Shown here: positions 16,298 to 61,779 of the stretch, in pieces
Layout: each line of letters starts with the position of its first letter
How positions within the stretch are numbered: position 1 is the stretch's first letter
NCBI GenBank assembly: GCA_038087875.1
Contig: CM075988.1
Location: forward strand, 3,844,001-3,908,000
Source: Malacoraja senta
Lineage: Eukaryota
Length of the DNA stretch: 64,000 bases
Direction of reading: 5' to 3'
Translations under genes and position numbers: made by a program
Notes under the pieces: model-generated
Told to the model about the DNA's origin: nothing
The model's input: the letters and a program-made list of their open reading frames with translations, nothing else
Database searches by the model: none

Positions 16298-16585
16298 TGG
16301 TGGAGTCCAGAACCCGGGGTCACAGTTCAAGAATAAAGGCTAGGCCATTTAGTACTGAGATGAGGAAAACCGTTTTCACCCAGAGAGTTGTGAATCTGTG
16401 GAATTCTCTGCCTCAGAAGGCAGTGGTGGCCAATTCATTGGATGTTTTCAAGAGAGAGTTAGATATAGCTCTTTGGGCTACTGATTTTGGATGATCAGCC
16501 ATGATCATATTGAATGACGGTGCTGACTCGAAGGGCCGAATGGCCTACTCCTGCACCTATTTTATATGTTTCCAAGACAACGAAC

Positions 16586-16639
16586 AGGGTGGGAGATTGC
16601 AACCTTCACGTGGTCTGCCCTGTTTCGACTAATGCAATC
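16586..16639 (+). ncRNA. Minimal HDV/CPEB3-like self-cleaving ribozyme motif (predicted)
   Basis: P1 AGGGUGG/CUGCCCU, P2 GAUUGCA/UGCAAUC, P3 ACC/GGU, L3 UUCACGU, GU, vestigial P4 UUCGA, J4/2 CUAA (putative catalytic C at 16629). Confidence 0.8.
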
Positions 16640-16724
16640 AACCCGGCGTGCACAAATAAATAGATCAAATAGAACAAGTTGACCTACAACTTTAGGCTGT
16701 GCACGCCGTACACAAGACGAAGAT
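16586..16724 (+). mobile_element. Short non-autonomous retroposon with a 5' HDV-like ribozyme (copy 1)
   Basis: 10-bp TSD gacaacgaac (16576-16585 and 16725-16734), degenerate (GAA)n tail, homologous to 39406-39537. Confidence 0.9.
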
Positions 16725-17012
16725 GACAACGAACGTGTTAACAGCAAGTCTGTGTGTGTCGGAGGTATAATAGTAATGACAGTGGGTATGTTAAATAGCA
16801 AGTACCAGCTGGCAACTTCTCAACTCCAGATGGATCAGAGTTTAAAGGTAGGTAAAATGAACATGTTAAATAACAGATACAAACTGGCAGCTTGGTTTAA
16901 TGTATTCATGAATTGTACACCTTCAACGGTTTGTGGGACGTCTACACAGGCGCCCAGTGCGATAAACAAGCTGGCTTGTCTCAGGGGTCAATGAGAGTGT
17001 GGCTGTACTTAC

Positions 17013-19044: not shown

Positions 19045-19352
19045 ACTTTAGACTTTAGAGATACAGTGCGGAAACAGGCCCTTCTGCCTACCGAGTCTGT
19101 GCTGTCCAGCGATCACCCAGTACACTAGCACTATCCTACATGCTAGGGACAATTTACAATCTTGCCGAAGCCAATTAACCTATAAACCTGCACGCCTTTG
19201 GGATGTGGGAGGAAAACGGAGAACTCGGGGAAAACCCACAGTCGCTGGGAGAAGGAACAAACTCCGCACAGACAGCACCCATCGTCATGATCAAAGCTGG
19301 GTCTCTGGCGCTGTGAGGCAGCAGCTCTACCTGCTGCACCACCATGCCGCCA
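19045..19352 (-). mobile_element. V-SINE (HE1-like) immediately downstream of the exon donor
   Basis: Full-length copy whose head starts about 14 nt after the donor GT. Confidence 0.88.
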
Positions 19353-19365
19353 CCATGCCTCTTAC

Positions 19366-19515
19366 CTGGCAGCTGCTTCTCGACCCCCAGCCCAAGCCCG
19401 TCCTTGGTCCAGAGGACGATGCCACGGTAACCAGCGACGGCGCAGGACAGCGTGACCGGGTGCCCGGCCACCACCACGCGGTCCTCCGGCTGCAGCGTGA
19501 ACGAGGACGCATGGC
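19366..19515 (-). CDS. kirrel3l: Internal coding exon of a KIRREL/NEPH-family adhesion protein, first half of Ig domain 1 (probably KIRREL2/kirrel3l lineage; paralog uncertain)
   Basis: Acceptor ttcttgttatttttccgccag|GC, donor CCAG|gtaaga, 150 bp, phase 1/1. Encodes HASSFTLQPEDRVVVAGHPVTLSCAVAGYRGIVLWTKDGLGLGVEKQLP, which matches the KIRREL QPxD..VTLxC..Y.G.V.W.KDGLxLG signature. Confidence 0.9.
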
Positions 19516-19679
19516 CTGGCGGAAAAATAACAAGAAACCTGGCGTCAACCAAGCGGCACTCTGTAAAGAAATGCAAACATCACAAATGCTGCTTCTCTCA
19601 AACACCACAGATAATACCACAAACAGGTCCGAGAGCATGTAGAAGAATGCATGTAGAAGAATCCGAGAGGGAAAAAAGA

Positions 19680-39143: not shown

Positions 39144-39405
39144 TAAGTCTTCACTTCCTCAGGGAAAGCTTCTAGTCATCGCTGCAACTCTAGCTAAGGC
39201 CACAAGCTCAGCTGAAAGGAAAATCAAAGCCTTTTCGCAATACATGACACAAATGCACTGTTGCATCAAACAACCTTGTCAGATTGAAGCCAAGGAGGGC
39301 AGCTATAGGATGAAGACAGAGAACATCGGCATACTATGTCTGGTTCAACCACATGAACCTAAGTGCCGTTCAGCAGGTGTGATGTTGGGCACAAAGTGCT
39401 GGAGT

Positions 39406-39459
39406 GGGGGGGGAGATTGCAACCTTCACGTGGTCCACCCTGTTTCGACGAATGCAATC
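39406..39459 (+). ncRNA. Minimal HDV/CPEB3-like self-cleaving ribozyme motif (predicted)
   Basis: P1 GGGGGGG/CCACCCU with G1.U wobble and one mismatch, P2 GAUUGCA/UGCAAUC, P3 ACC/GGU, L3 UUCACGU, J4/2 CGAA (putative catalytic C at 39449). Confidence 0.82.
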
Positions 39460-39537
39460 AATCTGACGTGCACAAACAAGGTTCAAATAGAACAAGTTGA
39501 CCTACAACTTTATGCTGTGCACGCCATGCACAAGAAG
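39406..39537 (+). mobile_element. Short non-autonomous retroposon with a 5' HDV-like ribozyme (copy 2), inserted in a Penelope pLTR fragment
   Basis: 12-bp TSD aagtgctggagt (39394-39405 and 39538-39549), AAGAAG tail. Confidence 0.9.
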
Positions 39538-39589
39538 AAGTGCTGGAGTAACTCAGCGGGTCAGGTAGTATCTCTGGAAACATAGATAG

Positions 39590-40370
39590 GTTTGGTATTT
39601 TATTGCTTTAATGATTGCTTGATGTCTGCGATTCATGGACATCACCAGTTGCTGGGTGTCTTCTCTGGTGATGCTCTGCCAGGCCTGTATTGCAGCCATC
39701 TTTAGCTTATTCTTGTTTTGGGGGCTAGTCCTCTTCAGTTTTCTCTTCAGCATATAAAAGGCATGCTCAATTGGGTTCAGATCAGGTGATTAACTTGGCC
39801 ACTAAAGAAATGACAATTTTTTTGCTTTGAAAAACTCCTTTGTTGCTTGAGCAGTATGTTTGGGATCATTGTCTTGATGTAGAATGAACCGCCGGCCAAT
39901 AAGTTTTGAGGCATTTGTTTGAACATGAGCAGATAGGATGTGTCTATACACTTCAGAATTCATTATGCTACTACCATCAGCAGTTGTATCATCAATGAAG
40001 ATAAGTGAGCCAGTACCTTCAGCAGCCATACATGCCCAGGCCATAACAACCTCACCACCGTGTTTCACAGATGAGGGGGTATGCTTTGTATCTTGGGCTA
40101 TTCCTTCTCTCCTCCATACTTTGCTCTTGCCATCATTCCGATATAACTTAATCTTGGTCTCATCTGTCCACAAGACCTTTTTCCAGGACTGTGGTTGCTC
40201 TTTTAAGTACTTCTTGGCAATCTGCAACCTGGCCATCCTATTTTTACGGCTAACCAGGGGTTTGCATCTTGCAGTGTAGCCTCTGTATTTCTGTTGATGA
40301 AGTCCTCTGCGGACAGTGGTCATTGACAAATCCATACCTGACTCCTGAAGACTGTTTCTGATCTCCAGAT
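39590..40370 (-). mobile_element. Tc1/mariner (DD34E-type) transposase pseudogene fragment
   Basis: CKPLVSRKNRMARL, VLWTDETK, VKHGG..VMAW, QDNDPKHT, then after a frameshift near 39805 SPDLNPIEHAF. No TIRs seen. Confidence 0.92.
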
Positions 40371-40811
40371 GCATCCAGTCAGTTTGCTCTCAAGGCTAAG
40401 TTCGTAGACGTTCGCTGGAGTATTTAGCGATGTGCCAAATCTTATCAAAGCTCTGAACGAGGGAATTAATGATGGGAAATAAGGAACTAGTAGAGATTGT
40501 GAGCAAATATTTATCCTTCAGCTTCCGAACAGGTCACTAAAAGCAGCCCAATAATGCTTAAAAAATCATGTGCAAAGGAGAGGGGAAAACATGAGAAACA
40601 TGAAACAAAGAGAGAAGTAGGGTACTGATTCTGGATGATCAGCCATGATCATATTAAATGGCGGTGCTGGCTTGAAGGGCCGAATGGCCTGCTTCTACAC
40701 CTACTTTCTATGCTTCTATGTTTCCATGTTTCTATCCCCAACCACCAGCAGCAGAGAAAGATTACCAGAAAATCTAAAGGGAGAAAAACGCTGACATGTC
40801 TCTGGAACTGA

Positions 40812-42304: not shown

Positions 42305-43270
42305 GTGGTTTTGTGTCCTTGCTCCCTGCACCAGCCCCTCAGCCACACATTCCGATCCCCTACCTTCCTGTTCCTGTCCTCAGTAGCACCATGTACTGTA
42401 AGCAATCCAGAGATAACCACCCTAGAAGTCCGGCCTTACAGTCTTCTGCCTAATGCCCCTGTCCCACTTAGGAAACCTGAACGGAAACCTCTGGAGACTT
42501 TGCGCCCCACCCAAGGTTTCCGTGCGGTTCCCGGAGGTTTTTGTCAGTCTCCCTAATGGTCGAAAGTGGTTTCCGCTTCTTCTATGCTCCGGCGATTATT
42601 TCAAAAAATTCAAAACCGGCCGCGACTAAAAATAGGTTGCCGTTTTAAAAATCGGTAATTTTTTAGTCAAAGCCGGTTGCGATGCTAGTTGAAGGTGGTT
42701 GCCGGAGGTTGCAGGTAGTGGAAGGTAAGACCTATATTTCACCCAGTTTTATTCCACCAGGGAGGTCTTACCTTCCACTACCTTCAACCTCCGGCAACCA
42801 CCTTCAACTAGCATCGAAACCGGCTTCAACTAAAAAATTAACGATTTTTAAAACGGCAACCTATATTTAGTCGCGGCCGGTTTTGAATTTTTAAAAATAA
42901 TCGCCAGAACATAGAAGAAGCGGAAACCACTGTCGACCATTAGGGAGACTGACAAAAACCTCCGGTAACCGCACGGAAACCTTGGGTGGGGCGCAAAGTC
43001 TCCAGAGGTTTCCGTTCAGGTTTCCTAAGTGGGACAGGGGCATAACTCTCTGAACTCATGTTGCAGAACCTCCTTCCTCTTCTTCCCGATGTTGTTTGTG
43101 CCCACGTGCACAACTACTGCCGGCTGTTCACCTTCCCTCTCGAGGTTGTTTTGAATTTGGTTCGTGACATCTTGAACCCTGACACCAGGGAGGCAACAGA
43201 CCATCCTCATGTCACGCTTGTCTCCAGAGAATCTCCAGTTGGACAGTCCCACCACTATGGCTCTGCTCAA
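42305..43270 (-). mobile_element. CR1 LINE ORF1 (SGNH/GDSL esterase domain) remnant, split by the palindromic MITE
   Basis: RMVCCLPGVRVQDV...VVVHVGTNNIG...EFREL, continuing past the MITE as GRRL*GRTSRVVISGLL...NVWLRGWCREQG. Confidence 0.88.
42454..43042. mobile_element. Palindromic PIF/Harbinger MITE (subfamily D) with 280-bp arms
   Basis: TAA TSD on both sides. Arms 42454-42733 and 42763-43042, about 12 mismatches by eye, 29-nt spacer. Confidence 0.92.
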
Positions 43271-55148: not shown

Positions 55149-56143
55149 CTTCTTCTTCTTCCGTCGTGTGTCTTTTAGACCTGCAGCTCCGTTGAGGCGA
55201 GCCAGGCCAACGTGTCATCGTCCAGGTCAATCAGACCTCGTTCACCATTCGGTGGCCGGTGTTTGGGGCAACTGGTGACTATGTGCTCCACTGTCTGTGT
55301 TGGGTCCCCACACTCGCGGGAGGCACTCGCTGTCCACGAGGCCCCACCTCTTCATCGCTACTCCATAGCGTCCGATGCCTGTCCTCAAGCGGTTGAGGGT
55401 TGTCCACTGCTTTCGGGGCAGGTCCTGGCCAGGGACGTCCATGGGGTCATCGATGTAATGGTGTAGCCTAGATGGTTCCGCTGACTTCCACTGGTCTCTC
55501 CAAGGCAGCCTTAGAAGCGTCAGCCGGTGTTGTGCAGAGCAGCTCTTGGGCTTGCGTGGCAAAGGGGTGCCGTGACTTGAGGCGCACTCGTCGTGGTGTC
55601 TCTGTGACGATCTGATGGAGGAGGTGGGATTCACTGGTCTGTGCCTTTCGAGAGAGGGCCAGCGTGGCTGCTTCTCGTCTGATGTTGGCTGGGGCGATGC
55701 CAGCGAGGACGGGCAGTTGGTTTACTGGGGTGGCTCGTAGGCATCCGGAGACAGTCCGCAGGGTGCTGTTGAGGGCAGCATCCAGCTTCTTGGCGTGAGG
55801 ACTACGGCACCAGACTCAGCGGCTGAGAACACCAGGGCCACTGTGGACATGTGCAGTGTCTTCGTCGTGGCTCCCCATGTGGTGCCGGCTAGGCGGCGAA
55901 TCAGTGCGGCACGGGCGATTGTCTTTGCCTTGGCACCTTCCAGGAGTTGTTTGAATGACAACGTTCTGTCGAGCTTCACACCGAGGTACGTGGGGACAGG
56001 CTGGGACCGTAATCGGGCGTTATCCACCATGACGTTCATCTCGCGGGACACTTCCCTGTTGTTGAGTTGGAACATTGAAGATGTTGTCTTACCCCTGCTG
56101 AGCTTGAGGCGCCAGTTCCTCAGGTATGAAGACCGGGTGCTCA
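55149..56143 (-). mobile_element. I-group (Vingi/Ingi-like) LINE 3' fragment
   Basis: YLGVKLDRTLSF...RRLAGTTWGA...ALVFSAAE and WTTLNRLRTG, very short 3' UTR, (GAA)n tail. Confidence 0.78.
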
Positions 56144-59100
56144 TGTCCCTTGATCCCACTAGCCCCTAGAGCTCTATCTAACTCTCTCTTAAATCCATCC
56201 AGTGATTTGGCCTCCACTGCCCTCTGTGGCAGGGAATTCCACAAATTCACAACTCTCTGGGTGAAAAAGTTTTTTCTCACCTCAGTCTTAAATGGCCTCT
56301 CCTTTATGACCTGGCCATCCTACTTAGTAAGCCATCCTGGGAAGCAGCAGAAGAGGGCCTCTCTGAAGTCAGCACGGTGCTGGCTCGGGGCCGAATGGCC
56401 TCCTCCTGCATCTATTTTCTATGTTTCTAATCTGTGTAGCTTCACCCAATCTATGCCTCATAAAGTTATACACCTCTGTAAGATCACCCCTCAGCCTCCT
56501 GCGCTCCAAAGATCAAAGTTCTGCTTTTGAAAAGCGTTTGTACCCCACTGAACATGTGATTGGACTCAGTTCTAGCATTGGGATGAAGGTCTTTCTGAGA
56601 GATGTGCACTCTTGGTAATGGACATATCGCCCTGGATAATGTGCTTTATAATTTTGGAGTGAGACTAATGGAAGAGTGAAAGTGCTCAGTTTAATATTTA
56701 ATTTCCTTCCAGCGTAACGGCACTGTCGAAAGACACAGAAACTCCAATTTAATTTCCTAAAGCTCTTAAGATAATGTGTTTAACATTTAAATAAAGCATA
56801 CACTTGCAGAATTCCCCAGCACAGCCAATGAGGGGACTGGGCACTGGAAGTGTAACTGCAGCTGACAGCCATAGATTTCAGGCTGTTTCCACCTTTGTAT
56901 GTCAAGCTCTTTACTTTCTGTATCCACCTTTTAATAGTCATTCCACATCCTTGTTCTTTGCAACAAATGCTTGCAAACATCTGAATGAGGGAGCAGAAGG
57001 CCGGTGTGATTCATTGTGGCGTGGAAGGGAAAGTTCTGGTCTGTGATGGACTAAGAGAAAAGATGCCTCAGTTAGCTTGCTAGAACTGTGTACTTGCCAC
57101 CTGTCTGTGGCAAGTGCAGGCTCCGCTCTCTGTCCTGAGTAGTGTAGGGTAGCGTAGGGACAGTTTCTTCCCAGGTGTGATCAGGCAACTGAATCATCCT
57201 CCCACAACCAGAGAGCAGTGCTGAACTACTATCTACCTCATTGGTGACCCTTGGGCTATCCTTCGTCAGACTTTGCTGGCGTTACCTTGCACTAAATGTT
57301 ATTCTCTTATCATATCTACACACTGTAAATGGTGTACAGCTCTTCACTATACAATAGACTAAACTGAACTGAACTGAGTACAGGCTCCTGTTTCCTGTGT
57401 CTAGTGAGTTCAGTGATGGCACGTGGCATAGTGGTGGAGTTGCTGCCTCACAGCACCAGAGACCCTAGTTAGATCCATGTCCTTGGGTGCTGTCTGTGTG
57501 GAGTTTGTACGTTCCCCCTGTGACCATGTGGGTTTTCTCCGGGTGCTCGGGGTTCCTCCCACATCCCAAAGGTTTGCGGGTTTGTAGGTTAATTGGCTCC
57601 TGCAAATTGTCCCTAATGTGTGTAGGATAGAACTGGTGTGAATGAGTAATCGCTGGTCGGAGTGTACTTGGTGGGCCAAAGGGCCTGTTTCCATGCTGTA
57701 TTCCTAAACTAAACTAAACTGGTGAAGGAAGGAACTGAAGATGCCGGTTTACACCGAAGATAGATACAAAATGCTGGAGTAACTCAGCGGGTCTGGCAGC
57801 CTCTCTGGAGAAAAGGTATAGGTGATGTTTTGGGTCGAGATCCTTCTTCAGACTGAGAGTCAGGGGAGAGGGAAATGAGAGATATGCAAAGATTCAGAAC
57901 AAATAGGAGCTGCTTACAACCCAGTGGTATGAATATTGATTCATCTAATTTCAATTAACCCTCGGATTCTCTCTCCGTACCCCGTTCCTGCTTTCTCCCC
58001 ATATCCCGTGATTCCATTAGTTCCAAGAGCTAAATCTAACTCTCTCTTGAATACATCGAGTAAATTGGCCTCCATTGCCTTCTGTGGCAGAGAATTCCAC
58101 CGATTCACAACTCTCTGGGTGAAAACGTATTTCCTCATCTCAGTCCTAAATGGCCTACCTCATATTTTTAAACTGTGACCCCTGGTTCTGGACCTCCCCC
58201 AAGTTTTGGAGTAACTCAGTGAGTCAGGCAGCATCTCTGGAGAAAAAGGATGGGTGGTGTTTCGGGTCGGGACTCTTCTTCAGACTGAAAGCAGGCGGTG
58301 GGTGAAGAGCTGGCAGTGAGCAACGACCAGGGACAATCAGGGCCGGCCACAAGTGACCTCAGGCAGGGAGGTATCAGGGAAGACATATGTGGCCTACCCT
58401 GACTGGTCCTGGTCTTTTCCCCACTCCAGCTCTTCCCTTCCCCTCTCCACCCCTACTTTCAGTTACGAACAAGAATCCCAACCTGAAACGTCACCTATCC
58501 TTTTTCTCCAGAGATGCTGCCTTACTCCAGCACTTTGTGTCTATTTTTGTTATGAACCAGCATCTGCAGTTCCTTGTCTCTGCAAGGACATTGTGTGTAG
58601 ACGACAGACCCTTTGAGCAGTCTGAGGACGATCCAGCAAACTTTCAAGCATAACCAAGACGGCAATAATGGGAGATTTCAATTATCCTGGTATTAATTGC
58701 CAACACTGTCAGTGTGAAAGGGAGAGAGGGGCACAGAATAGGGTAGCACAGTGGCGCAACTGGTAGAGCTGCAAACTCACAGCCCCAGAGATCCGGGTTC
58801 AACCCTACCTCAGGTGCTGTCTGTGTGGAGTCAACACGTTCTCCCTGTGATCACGTGGGTTTACTCCGGGTGCTCCAGCATCCCACATACAGGCGCGTTT
58901 TGAGGTGAATTGATTTCTGTAAATTGCCCCTAGTGTGTCAGATGCCAAAATGGGATATCGTAGAGCTAGCGTGTGGATAGGAAGGAACTGCAGATGAATG
59001 AATGAATTAATAAGTTTATTGGCCAAGTATTCACATACAAGGAATTTGCCTTGGTGCTCTGCCCACAAGGGACAACATGACATGCAGTTGTCACATAAAA

Positions 59101-60095: not shown

Positions 60096-60740
60096 TCAAG
60101 TTCAAGTGAGTTTATTGTGATGTATCCCTGATAGGACAATGAAATTCTTGCTTTGCTTCAGCACAACAGAACATAGTAGGCATTGACTACAAGGCATTCT
60201 ATAAATATATACACTCATGAATCAATATACTGATAAAGTGCAAATAACAGTATTGGCTAATAAAGTTCAGTGTTATGTCCGAGCCAGGTTTAATAGTCTG
60301 ATGGCTGTGGGGAAGTAGCTATTCCTGAACCTGGTCGTTGCAGTCTTCAGGCTCCTGTACCTTCTACCTGAAGGTAGTAGGGAGATGAGTGTGTGGCAGG
60401 ATGGTGTGGGTCCTTGATGATGCTGCCAGCCTATTTGAGGCAGCGACTGTGGTAGATCCCCTCGATGGAAGGGAGGTCAGAGCCGATGATGGACTGGGCA
60501 GTGTTTACTACTTTTTGTAGTCTTTTCCTCTCCAGGGCGCTCAAGTTGCCGAACCAAGCCACGATGCAACCGGTCAGCATGCTCTCTACTGTGCACCTGT
60601 AGAAGTTAGAGAGAGTCCTCCTTGACAAACCGACTCTCTGTAATCTTCTCAGGAAGTAGAGGCGCTGATGTGCTTTCTTAATAATGGCATCAGTGTTCAT
60701 GGACCAGGAAAGATCTTCAGAGATGTGCACGCCCAGGAAT
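60096..60740 (-). mobile_element. Rex1/Babar LINE 3' fragment nested in a V-SINE
   Basis: FLGVHISEDLSWS...KKAHQRLYFLRRL...FYRCTVES. SINE halves lie at ~59995-60095 and ~60741-60886. Confidence 0.9.
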
Positions 60741-61779
60741 TTGGAGTGTGGGAGGAAACTGAAGATCTCGGGAAAAAAACCCACGCAGGTCACGGGGCGA
60801 ACGTACAAACTCCGTACCTGTAGCCATGATTAAGCCCTGGTCTCTGGCCCTGTAGGGCAGTCGATCTACCGCTGCGACACCATGCTGACTTCATCAGCCG
60901 AATGGCCTAATTCTGCACCTAGAACTTATGGACATAAACTTCAGGGAGACATCTTCACAAAGTAAAAGGATGGGGCAGCCAAATCTAGCACTCCCTGGAT
61001 GATGAATAGTAAAAGACCTATGCAAGACACTGACTGATTGGTGGAATACAGAGGGCTTGCGAGATAAATTGGAAGGGAAATTAGGAAAGGAAAGAACAGT
61101 TTCAAACAGTTAAAGTCAAATTGTCAGTCTGAAGAAGGTTCTGACCCAAAACATCACCCATCCTTTTTCTCCAGAGAAGCTGCCTGACCCACTGAGTTAC
61201 TCCAGGACATTGCGCCCATCTTTGGTAAAATCAAAAGATGCTTGTAAGTACATGAGGCACAAAAGCAGAAAGTTTTGGGCCATTTGACCATAAAATGTAA
61301 ATAGTTTCAGTTTAGTTTATTGTCACGTGTACCGAGGTAGAGTGAAAAACTTCTGTTGCGGAAAGACAATACATGATTACAATCGAGCCTTTTACCGTGT
61401 ACATGATAAGGGAATAATGTTTAGTGCAAAGCAAAGCCAGCTAAGTCTGATCAAGGATAGTCCGTGGGTCACCAAAGAGGTTGATGGTAGTTCAGCACTG
61501 CTCTCTGGTTGTGGTAGGATGATTCAGTTGCCTGATAACAGCTGGGAAGAAACTGTCCCTGAATCTGGAGGTGTGCGTTTTTACATTTCTGTACTGATGG
61601 GAGAGGGGAGGAGAGGGAGTGGCTAGGGTGCGACTCGTCCTTGATTATGCTGCTGGCCTTGCCGAGGCAGCGTGAGGTGTAAGTGTAGTCAATAGAGAAG
61701 GAGGGTAAGATTATTAATTAATATTTCATGACTGGCTTCACAAAATGCTGTCGTTGTAATTAAGGAGGACGCGTGTGAA

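What the first reader, a model, noticed from the sequence alone, without database searches (positions are those of the whole stretch)
39394..39549. Second, independent copy confirms the ribozyme boundary and allows the ancestral P1 to be rebuilt
Seen: a different 12-bp TSD, and again the element begins at P1 +1, here a G that forms the canonical G.U wobble, with J4/2 = CGAA. P2, P3 and L3 are identical to copy 1. Inference: the P1' variants CTGCCCT and CCACCCT are the two alternative CpG-decay products of CCGCCCT, implying a fully paired ancestral GGGGCGG/CCGCCCU. The copy sits inside a Penelope pLTR fragment. Both copies are antisense to the KIRREL transcript, as expected if sense copies cleave the pre-mRNA and are selected against, but n=2.
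Basis: partly seen in the sequence, partly recalled or inferred. Interest (0 to 1): 0.8.

Follow-up and report, generated by a model that had tools for sequence, protein, structure and literature searches.

The report
Short retroposon headed by a ribozyme
The flagged stretch is one decayed copy of a roughly 135-base jumping element, present in thousands of copies, whose first 54 bases have the shape of a hepatitis-delta-type self-cutting RNA; this arrangement is already known from other jumping elements.

Summary
Window 39406-39537 (+) is a 132-bp insertion flanked by an exact 12-bp target duplication. It starts at the first G of a 7-bp P1, and its P2/P3/L3 are identical to those of copy 1 (16586-16724).

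It belongs to a family with 8,780 core matches in the 1.94-Gb genome. Copies have (AAG)n tails and 6-13-bp duplications that end exactly at G1.

The first 54 nt fit a P4-less HDV-like double pseudoknot: P1 7 bp with G1·U, P2 7, P3 3, L3 7, a possible P1.1, and C-N-A-A before P2'. Such a fit arises about 4 times per 10 million random positions.

An abundant RTE-like LINE in the same genome (APE+RT, same (AAG)n tail) starts at its +1 with a fold of identical segment lengths but different helix sequences. 8 of 17 pairs are changed on both sides and all 17 still pair.

CCGCCCU is a major and probably older 3' strand. The 5' strand is GGGGUGG (96 of 100), not GGGGCGG (3 of 100), so pair 5 is U·G or U-A.

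No cleavage is shown. No Rfam model matches, and one poly(A) RNA run shows no pile-up of starts at G1. This is a new member of a known kind.

The parts
39394..39405 (+). left copy of the 12-bp target-site duplication AAGTGCTGGAGT
39406..39537 (+). copy 2 of the short retroposon (132 bp), A-type subfamily, about 93% like the nearest copies
39406..39412 (+). P1 5' strand GGGGGGG; the family has GGGGTGG, and G5 is private to this copy; G1 is the predicted cleavage site and the element's first base
39415..39421 (+). P2 5' strand GATTGCA; 39413-39414 (GA) is J1/2
39422..39434 (+). P3 (ACC/GGT) closing the 7-nt loop L3 TTCACGT
39435..39441 (+). P1 3' strand CCACCCT; T36 pairs with G1 as a wobble; A32 faces G5, a mismatch here
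39442..39448 (+). GT (a possible P1.1 with AC of L3) followed by a 5-nt linker TTCGA in place of P4
   Evidence: inference
39449..39452 (+). J4/2 CGAA; C at 39449 sits where the catalytic cytosine lies
   Evidence: position rule from PMC10879173
39453..39459 (+). P2 3' strand TGCAATC
39465..39525 (+). 3' domain: long stem GACGTGCACA/TGTGCACGCC (perfect 10 bp in the older G-type copies) enclosing the small hairpin GTTG-ACCTA-CAAC
39526..39537 (+). 3' end ATGCACAAGAAG: terminal motif and short (AAG) tail; the border with the duplication is ambiguous by 3 nt
39538..39549 (+). right copy of the 12-bp target-site duplication
16586..16724 (+). copy 1 of the same family (A1 instead of G1, P1' CTGCCCT, J4/2 CTAA), flanked by the 10-bp duplication GACAACGAAC (16576-16585, 16725-16734)
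55149..56147 (-). 5'-truncated copy of the candidate partner LINE: end of the RT ORF, 14-nt 3' UTR and (AAG)4 tail
19367..19507 (-). context: exon encoding the start of the first Ig domain of a Kirrel-family protein; both retroposon copies lie on the opposite strand

Best explanation
Copy 2 is a dead insertion of a non-autonomous, LINE-dependent retroposon. Its head is not a polymerase-III promoter but a minimal (P4-less, 54-nt) HDV-like self-cleaving ribozyme.

Proposed cycle:
1. A source copy is transcribed passively as part of a longer host or neighbouring transcript (inferred).
2. The ribozyme folds into the nested double pseudoknot and cuts immediately 5' of G1. The element RNA then starts exactly at P1 +1 (inferred from the fold and from the boundary in genomic copies).
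3. The 3' stem-loop domain and the ...ACG-N-A-AGAAG(AAG)n end are used by the endonuclease/reverse transcriptase of an RTE-like LINE. That LINE has the same tail and itself starts with a P4-containing HDV-like ribozyme (partner inferred).
4. Target-primed reverse transcription copies the RNA to its very 5' end, giving 10-13-bp duplications that abut G1 (shown).

The family's P1 is GGGGUGG paired with CCGCCCU (U·G at pair 5) or, in a derived subfamily, CCACCCU (U-A). Both window copies are damaged: copy 2 has a G·A mismatch in P1, and copy 1 has A1 in place of G1. Both are probably poor ribozymes now.
For: Boundary and family:
- An exact 12-bp duplication flanks copy 2.
- 20 of 31 copies have exact duplications that end at -1 of G1.
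- The core has 2,183 exact and 8,780 near-exact (up to 3 mismatches) hits; the reversed-pattern control has 0.
- The same boundary shows as loose ends at G1 in DNA runs of other coded organisms.

Fold:
- All segments fit an HDV-like descriptor.
- 35 of 51 known copies pass the strict descriptor. There are 0 non-family hits in 325,328 scanned bases, and 0 hits when the catalytic C is replaced by A or T.
- 3 hits in 6.8 Mb of random sequence.
- The nested MFE of the first 54 nt is exactly P1+P3, and P2 appears in the whole-element MFE.

Variation between subfamilies inside the ribozyme falls on J1/2 (position 8), the wobble-to-Watson-Crick pair (position 32) and the N of C-N-A-A (position 45).

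Independent second case, the LINE:
- It has APE+RT and ends in (AAG)n in 10 of 10 copies.
- 6 of 8 fetched 5' regions share one terminus. It folds with the same 7-2-7-3-7-3-7 segment lengths. Against the SINE, 8 of 17 pairs are changed on both sides and all 17 are paired.
- 3 of 6 copies fit with no P1 mismatch, and 4 of 6 with one.
- The LINE core has 152 genome hits, control 0.

Precedent: ribozyme-headed non-autonomous elements and RTE ribozymes (passages of PMC3774820 and PMC6765202).
Against: - No cleavage was observed.
- In one poly(A) RNA run of a related organism, no place reached the tool's threshold for many read starts at G1. 194 reads run on across the 5' boundary.
- No Rfam HDV-type model matches copy 2 or five near-consensus copies, even at E up to 10.
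- P1.1 would be only one G-C plus one A-U pair, and the P4 replacement is a 5-nt linker, so activity may be low.
- The LINE needs P1.1 shifted by one base to fit.
- SINE and LINE show no significant primary similarity: local alignment scores lie within those of shuffles. The partnership rests on the tail, an 11-of-15 match at the end, and abundance. The helix differences are a comparison of two fits, not covariation within one proven homologous alignment.
- No LINE with the SINE's own ribozyme core was found.
Confidence: 0.78

Rival explanations
1. The fold is real but not catalytic. The 5' end would be a transcription start (an internal promoter, as proposed for the first 77 nt of L1Tc/NARTc), and the compact pseudoknot would serve RNA stability, protein binding or translation.
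For: No pile-up of starts at G1, and many boundary-crossing reads, in RNA run X24. No Rfam ribozyme hit. A dual promoter and ribozyme is described for L1Tc (abstract of PMC3383444, listing).
Against: No tRNA, 5S or 7SL likeness at E up to 10. Every position that defines the HDV-like core is present, including the cytosine of C-N-A-A. An unrelated-sequence LINE in the same genome has the same architecture at its own +1.
Confidence: 0.13
2. One reading: the ancestral P1 was fully Watson-Crick, GGGGCGG/CCGCCCU, and both strands later decayed at CpG.
For: CCGCCCT is a major and probably older 3' strand. 2 of 100 listed copies carry GGGGCGG with CCGCCCT (L049 and L050).
Against: T at position 5 in 96 of 100 listed copies, whatever the 3' strand. 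No T>C variant reaches 10% in four runs from four coded organisms. Other CpGs of the element survive in the majority sequence. The two C5 copies are otherwise ordinary G-type copies.
Confidence: 0.05
3. The HDV-like pairing scheme is a chance resemblance in an ordinary short repeat.
For: A descriptor alone is not specific at genome scale: at about 4e-7 per position, some 1,700 chance hits are expected in this genome.
Against: The hit lies exactly at the first base of the element. It has a GC-rich 7-bp P1 and an all-Watson-Crick 7-bp P2. The same thing happens at +1 of a second, unrelated-sequence retroelement family with the same tail.
Confidence: 0.02

Closest known systems
R2 SIDEs (short internally deleted elements) of Drosophila
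   Same: Non-autonomous elements that consist of a 5' HDV-like ribozyme, which processes the 5' end from a co-transcript, plus a 3' end recognised by the LINE machinery (PMC3774820 passages; PMC3414825 abstract).
   Different: SIDEs are deletion derivatives of R2 and insert into 28S rDNA. This family is dispersed (8,780 core hits), shows no significant sequence similarity to its candidate LINE, and its ribozyme lacks P4.
L1Tc/NARTc of Trypanosoma cruzi (L1TcRz in the Pr77 region)
   Same: A dispersed LINE and its short non-autonomous partner both begin with an HDV-like ribozyme (abstracts of PMC3383444 and PMC3185411).
   Different: There the two share the same 77-nt head, which is also a promoter. 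Here head sequences differ between SINE and LINE, and no promoter function is known.
HDV-like ribozymes at the 5' end of RTE and baggins LINEs (Ruminski et al. 2011, as cited in PMC6765202 and PMC3774820)
   Same: The candidate partner LINE has a single APE+RT ORF, is about 3.1 kb long, and has a very short 3' UTR ending in a simple repeat. That is the organisation described for RTE (abstract of PMC2887409). It has a ribozyme fold at +1.
   Different: Clade membership was not tested by a tree. The original paper was not read; only citing passages were seen.
Minimal (P4-less) HDV-like ribozymes and theta ribozymes
   Same: The same reduced architecture: P4 is replaced by a short loop, and the catalytic cytosine is the first base of J4/2 (PMC10879173, sections read).
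   Different: Those are reported from metagenomes and Caudoviricetes phages, often next to tRNAs, and that paper found none in its eukaryotic genome set. This one heads a vertebrate retroposon.
Mammalian CPEB3 ribozyme
   Same: The L3 heptamer is identical. A primer starting 18 nt from the mouse Cpeb3 cleavage site reads G-TTCACGT-CGC... (PMC10919898), and the SINE's L3 is TTCACGT.
   Different: A single-copy intronic ribozyme with a P4. The Rfam CPEB3 model does not match the SINE at E up to 10. Seven shared loop bases cannot show descent.

Membership tests
HDV-like (delta-like) self-cleaving ribozymes | Nested double pseudoknot: P1 (7 bp) and P2 crossing each other, with P3 (3 bp) and its L3 loop inside P1 | tested here: met
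   The family has P1 7 bp, P2 7 bp, P3 3 bp and L3 7 nt. Copy 2 itself has one P1 mismatch.
HDV-like (delta-like) self-cleaving ribozymes | Cleavage site 5' of the first P1 base, with a G·U wobble closing P1 | tested here: met
   G1·U36 is present in copy 2 and in the family majority. The site coincides with the element's first base. Cleavage itself was not tested.
HDV-like (delta-like) self-cleaving ribozymes | Catalytic cytosine as the first base of J4/2 | tested here: met
   C-N-A-A stands directly before P2'. The rule is taken from PMC10879173.
HDV-like (delta-like) self-cleaving ribozymes | P1.1: the two bases after P1' pair with L3 | tested here: inconclusive
   The SINE's GT can pair with AC of L3. 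The LINE needs a one-base shift. These are weak pairs with no independent support.
HDV-like (delta-like) self-cleaving ribozymes | Self-cleavage activity dependent on the cytosine and on divalent ions | not testable with these tools
   Only indirect RNA data are available: no pile-up of starts at G1 in run X24.
Rfam HDV-type families (HDV ribozyme, CPEB3 and others) | Score at or above the curated covariance-model threshold | tested here: not met
   No hit at gathering threshold in the window. No HDV-type hit at E up to 10 on copy 2 or on five near-consensus copies.
LINE-dependent non-autonomous retroposon (SINE/SIDE-like) | Variable-sequence target-site duplications, a defined 5' end, and a simple-repeat 3' tail | tested here: met
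   6-13-bp duplications and an (AAG)n tail.
LINE-dependent non-autonomous retroposon (SINE/SIDE-like) | 3' end shared with an autonomous LINE of the same genome | tested here: inconclusive
   The same (AAG)n tail, and 11 of the last 15 bases identical to the RTE-like LINE. No longer similarity.
Polymerase-III SINE (tRNA/5S/7SL head) | Head derived from a small RNA gene | tested here: not met
   No tRNA, 5S or 7SL match at E up to 10.
RTE-clade LINE (candidate partner) | Single ORF with APE and RT, about 3.2 kb, very short 3' UTR made of simple repeats | tested here: met
   description from the abstract of PMC2887409. No phylogeny was made, so the clade is inferred.
   The right flank is a motif that recurs about 45 times in the window. 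Elsewhere it continues into a hammerhead-like core, with 14 cores in the window. No Rfam hammerhead hit, and no Penelope ORF was looked for beyond Pfam on ORFs of 88 aa or more.

The most novel reading that the evidence does not exclude
The 54-nt head is an active, P4-less HDV-like ribozyme. That would be the first biological role for 'minimal' delta-like ribozymes in a eukaryote. Its loop L3, identical to that of the mammalian CPEB3 ribozyme, would mean that the CPEB3 ribozyme was exapted from a retroposon head of this lineage.
Probability: 0.1. Interest if true: 0.75.

Novelty: new member of a known kind. Interest (0 to 1): 0.45.

Why it matters
- It gives a clean vertebrate example of a short retroposon that needs no promoter of its own: a self-cutting RNA defines its 5' end, and an RTE-like LINE with its own ribozyme sits beside it in the same genome.
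- The head is about as small as delta-type ribozymes get. A bench test would show whether P4-less versions, so far tied to phages and metagenomes, work in animal retroelements.
- With about 8,800 copies, many of them inside genes, sense-oriented intact copies could cut host transcripts. The orientation question is therefore testable once an annotation is at hand.

Tried and rejected
- **Rfam.** Nothing at gathering threshold in the whole window. No HDV-type or hammerhead hit at permissive E-values around copy 2, on five near-consensus copies, or in 36-43 kb.
- **Search for a LINE carrying the SINE's own head or 3' end.** I used IUPAC 'not' patterns. They returned only indel or point variants of the SINE.
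- **(AAG)n tails in fetched DNA**. This is what led to the LINE fragment in the window.
- **Local alignment of SINE against LINE.** No similarity beyond shuffles, so the 'internally deleted LINE' origin is rejected for this LINE family.
- **Sequencing runs.** No RNA holder was listed by the look-up of sequencing runs.
- **Earlier scan notes.** Nothing relevant.
- **Literature.** Searches for HDV-like ribozymes together with SINE/non-autonomous, CPEB3/retrotransposon, cartilaginous-fish terms, and RTE found the precedents named above and no description of this family. These searches cover only the held open-access library.
- **Genome-wide orientation bias.** It could not be tested because there is no gene annotation.
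- **Copy 1.** It was not folded, because the script stopped before reaching it.

Full report
**The observation**

At 39394-39405 and 39538-39549 the window holds the same 12 bases, AAGTGCTGGAGT. Between them lies a 132-bp insert, 39406-39537.

The insert starts with eight G's. The first seven face CCACCCT at 39435-39441, with G1 opposite T36 as a wobble.

GATTGCA (39415-39421) is the exact complement of TGCAATC (39453-39459). ACC and GGT close the 7-nt loop TTCACGT. CGAA stands directly before TGCAATC.

The 20-mer covering P2, P3, L3 and P3' is identical at 16595-16614, in copy 1, and occurs nowhere else in the window. None of 100 shuffles gave a match.

Copy 1 is 16586-16724. It is flanked by a different duplication, GACAACGAAC.

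One correction: in copy 2, pair 5 of P1 is a G·A mismatch. The copy fits a strict HDV-like descriptor only if one P1 mismatch is allowed, whereas copy 1 fits with none.

**A large family with a fixed 5' end**

- A search of the window's own genome (1.94 Gb) with the 132 bp gave 1,988 first-look candidates. The 40 that were scored were 92-94% identical over the full length.
- A degenerate 35-mer of the head has 2,183 exact hits. Another 35-mer with up to 3 mismatches has 8,780 hits. Both are evenly split between strands, and the reversed-pattern controls have none.
- In an alignment of 31 copies, similarity begins at the same G and ends in ...CCATACGCAAGAAG followed by a variable (AAG)n.
- 20 of the 31 have an exact repeat of 6-13 bp that ends at position -1 of that G. 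One is offset by 2 nt. For 10 the script found no exact repeat, although several of these show imperfect ones by eye. Two of the 31 (L023, L024) are one duplicated locus.
- Contigs of DNA runs from other coded organisms break away from the reference at the same base, so the family and its boundary are shared by several species.

Variable duplications, a simple-repeat tail and a fixed 5' end are the marks of target-primed reverse transcription by a LINE enzyme.

**The P1 reconstruction**

I tallied by hand the first 100 genome hits, listed in chromosome order:

| 5' strand position 5 | P1' | copies of 100 |
|---|---|---|
| T | CCACCCT | 51 |
| T | CCGCCCT | 40 |
| T | CTGCCCT | 5 |
| C | CCGCCCT | 2 |
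| C | CCACCCT | 1 |
| T | CTACCCT | 1 |

- Position 5 is therefore T in 96-97 of 100.
- Reads and contigs of four runs from four coded organisms show no T>C variant at that place above 10%.
- At position 32, G reaches 84-89% in two of those organisms and about 50-70% in the other two.
- Twenty copies fetched for their CCG, CTG or C5 state share further diagnostic bases: CGAA, GGCG, an AATCAAATA insert and T94. They also have a perfect 10-bp stem in the 3' domain. This marks an older 'G-type' subfamily.

My reading is as follows. Copy 1's CTGCCCT is its CpG-decay product. CCACCCT is ten times commoner than its mirror product, so it is a state of a source copy, not decay in each copy.

The predicted 5' strand GGGGCGG is not supported.

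**Is the fold more than chance?**

I wrote a descriptor with these parts:
- G1·U at the base of P1, and P1 of 7 bp without mismatch.
- J1/2 of 0-3 nt.
- P2 of 6-8 bp.
- P3 of 3 Watson-Crick pairs, and L3 of 6-8 nt.
- P1.1 of 2 pairs.
- A linker of 3-70 nt.
- C-N-A-A directly before P2'.

Results:
- On both strands of the window and 49 loci (325,328 bases) it hit 35 sites. All are family copies, out of 51 known copies in that set.
- With A or T in place of the cytosine it hit nothing. With G it hit two mutated family copies.
- In 6.8 Mb of first-order Markov sequence it hit 3 sites, about 4e-7 per position.

That rate would give many chance hits in a whole genome. It makes a fit exactly at the first base of a retroposon family very unlikely to be chance.

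The nested minimum-energy fold of the first 54 nt of near-consensus copies is exactly P1+P3 (-12.4 kcal/mol). P2 appears in the fold of the whole element, together with a long 3' stem.

Differences between subfamilies inside the head fall on J1/2 (position 8), on pair 5 (position 32, wobble to Watson-Crick) and on the N of C-N-A-A (position 45).

Against membership by sequence: no Rfam model of the HDV type matches, even at E up to 10. This is expected for a P4-less pseudoknot but remains a negative result.

**A second, independent case: the likely partner LINE**

Looking for other (AAG)n tails in the DNA at hand led to window 55149-56147 (minus strand). It holds the end of a reverse-transcriptase ORF, a 14-nt 3' UTR and (AAG)4.

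- Its family has at least 2,450 first-look candidates.
- It ends in ...ACACACGACAGAAG(AAG)n in 10 of 10 copies examined.
- It encodes an APE endonuclease and RVT_1 in one reading frame.
- It is about 3.1 kb long.

This is the organisation described for RTE elements, whose very short 3' UTRs consist of simple repeats (abstract of PMC2887409). I made no tree.

Six of eight fetched 5' regions share one terminus, and their upstream flanks are unrelated. From its first base, that terminus reads in natural copies such as L075:

GGAGGAG AC AAAGGCA GCC TCTACGC GGC CTCCTCT, then a P4 hairpin region, then CCAA TGTCTTT.

These are the same 7-2-7-3-7-3-7 segment lengths as in the short element, with different helix sequences. 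Compared with the short element:
- 3 pairs of P1, 4 of P2 and 1 of P3 are changed on both sides, and all 17 remain paired.
- 5 of 7 L3 bases and the C-N-A-A are kept.

With P1.1 allowed to start one base later, 3 of 6 copies fit with no P1 mismatch at +1, and 4 of 6 fit with one. The other two carry a changed cytosine or further mutations. This relaxed descriptor hits 2 sites in 3.6 Mb of random sequence.

The LINE's head core has 152 genome hits with up to 2 mismatches, control 0.

The two families show no significant primary similarity. The short element is therefore not an internal deletion of this LINE. The helix differences are two separate fits to one architecture, not covariation within a proven alignment. 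The partnership rests on the shared tail, 11 of the last 15 bases, abundance and similar copy divergence.

**RNA data**

The one raw RNA run on offer is poly(A), paired-end, and from a related coded organism. It covers the element on both strands.

| stretch of L006 | first mate on + | first mate on - |
|---|---|---|
| element head | about 240 | about 140 |
| unrelated repeat just upstream | 1,085 | 1,050 |

No place reached the tool's threshold for many molecules beginning. 194 reads continue upstream of G1 into unrelated sequence.

- This gives no support for cleavage. It counts mildly against abundant cleaved product in poly(A) RNA.
- It fits passive co-transcription in both orientations.
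- The 1.7-fold strand asymmetry would mean more antisense than sense element RNA if the library is of the common type. The protocol is not known to me.

**Context**

- An ORF at 19178-19579 (minus strand) matches the first Ig domain of Kirrel3, Kirrel2 and Kirrel1 (E 9e-13 to 3e-10). Both copies, on the plus strand, are therefore antisense to that exon.
- That copy 2 lies in the same gene's intron is likely but not shown. Two of two is not a bias.
- The right flank of copy 2 belongs to a 40-55-nt motif that recurs about 45 times in the window. Elsewhere it runs into a hammerhead-like core, and there are 14 such cores in the window.
- Rfam gives no hammerhead hit and I found no Penelope gene. 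'Penelope pLTR' therefore remains a label, not a finding.
- A Tc1-type transposase ORF follows at 39805-40389.

**Mechanism, and what is known**

The best-supported reading is a promoter-less short retroposon.
1. Its RNA is cut out of longer transcripts by its own HDV-like head.
2. The RNA is copied back into the genome by an RTE-like LINE that processes its own 5' end in the same way.

Shown here: the insertion marks, the boundary, and the fit of two families to the fold. Inferred: catalysis, co-transcription and the partner.

This is the logic already described for:
- R2 and its SIDEs.
- L1Tc/NARTc.
- RTE and baggins elements.

The sources are passages of PMC3774820 and PMC6765202 and abstracts listed.

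What is unusual here:
- The head lacks P4. It is therefore like the 'minimal' delta-like ribozymes, which one recent study found almost only in phages and not in its eukaryotic set (PMC10879173, sections read).
- The host is a vertebrate.
- L3 is the same heptamer as in the mouse Cpeb3 ribozyme, judged from a primer printed in PMC10919898.

I rate it a new member of a known kind. The ancestral P1 is corrected to GGGGUGG/CCGCCCU.

Noticed in passing
window 42691-42805: A near-perfect palindromic hairpin of about 110 nt. It draws sub-threshold hits of several miRNA models on both strands and is probably an inverted-repeat element.
   Followed up: no
window, 14 places, e.g. 10337, 15045, 17895, 45014 (+) and 31474, 21926 (-): Hammerhead-like cores CTGAAGA-GGGTCTCGACCC-GAAAC inside a very abundant repeat, often in inverted pairs. 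Its arm motif recurs about 45 times in the window. No Rfam hammerhead model reached its threshold.
   Followed up: partly
genome-wide copies of the short retroposon: Recurrent internal deletions between short direct repeats: AATCAA...AATCAA in 16-19 of 100 listed pattern hits, and ACAA...ACAA in 17 of 25. They are either deletion subfamilies or repeated slippage.
   Followed up: no
position -1 of the short retroposon, loci L002-L030 and the window copies: T precedes G1 in about 22 of 31 copies and is part of the target duplication. This suggests a target-site or second-strand cleavage preference (counted by eye).
   Followed up: no
L014:610-655: A 14-nt partial duplicate of the element's 5' end, with its own copy of the target duplication, stands just upstream of the full copy.
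   Followed up: no
window 39805-40389 (-), 56089-56319 (-), 60434-60829 (-): Other mobile-element remains: a Tc1-type transposase ORF (HTH_Tnp_Tc3_2, E 8e-13), a CR1-like ORF2 C-terminus (label recalled) abutting the truncated LINE, and an ORF with an ALKBH8_N-type match typical of some LINE reverse transcriptases.
   Followed up: no
L065:5750-6080: One copy of the RTE-like LINE is inserted into the pol region of a gypsy-type LTR element (label recalled). The open frame runs through the junction, which at first made the LINE look longer than it is.
   Followed up: partly
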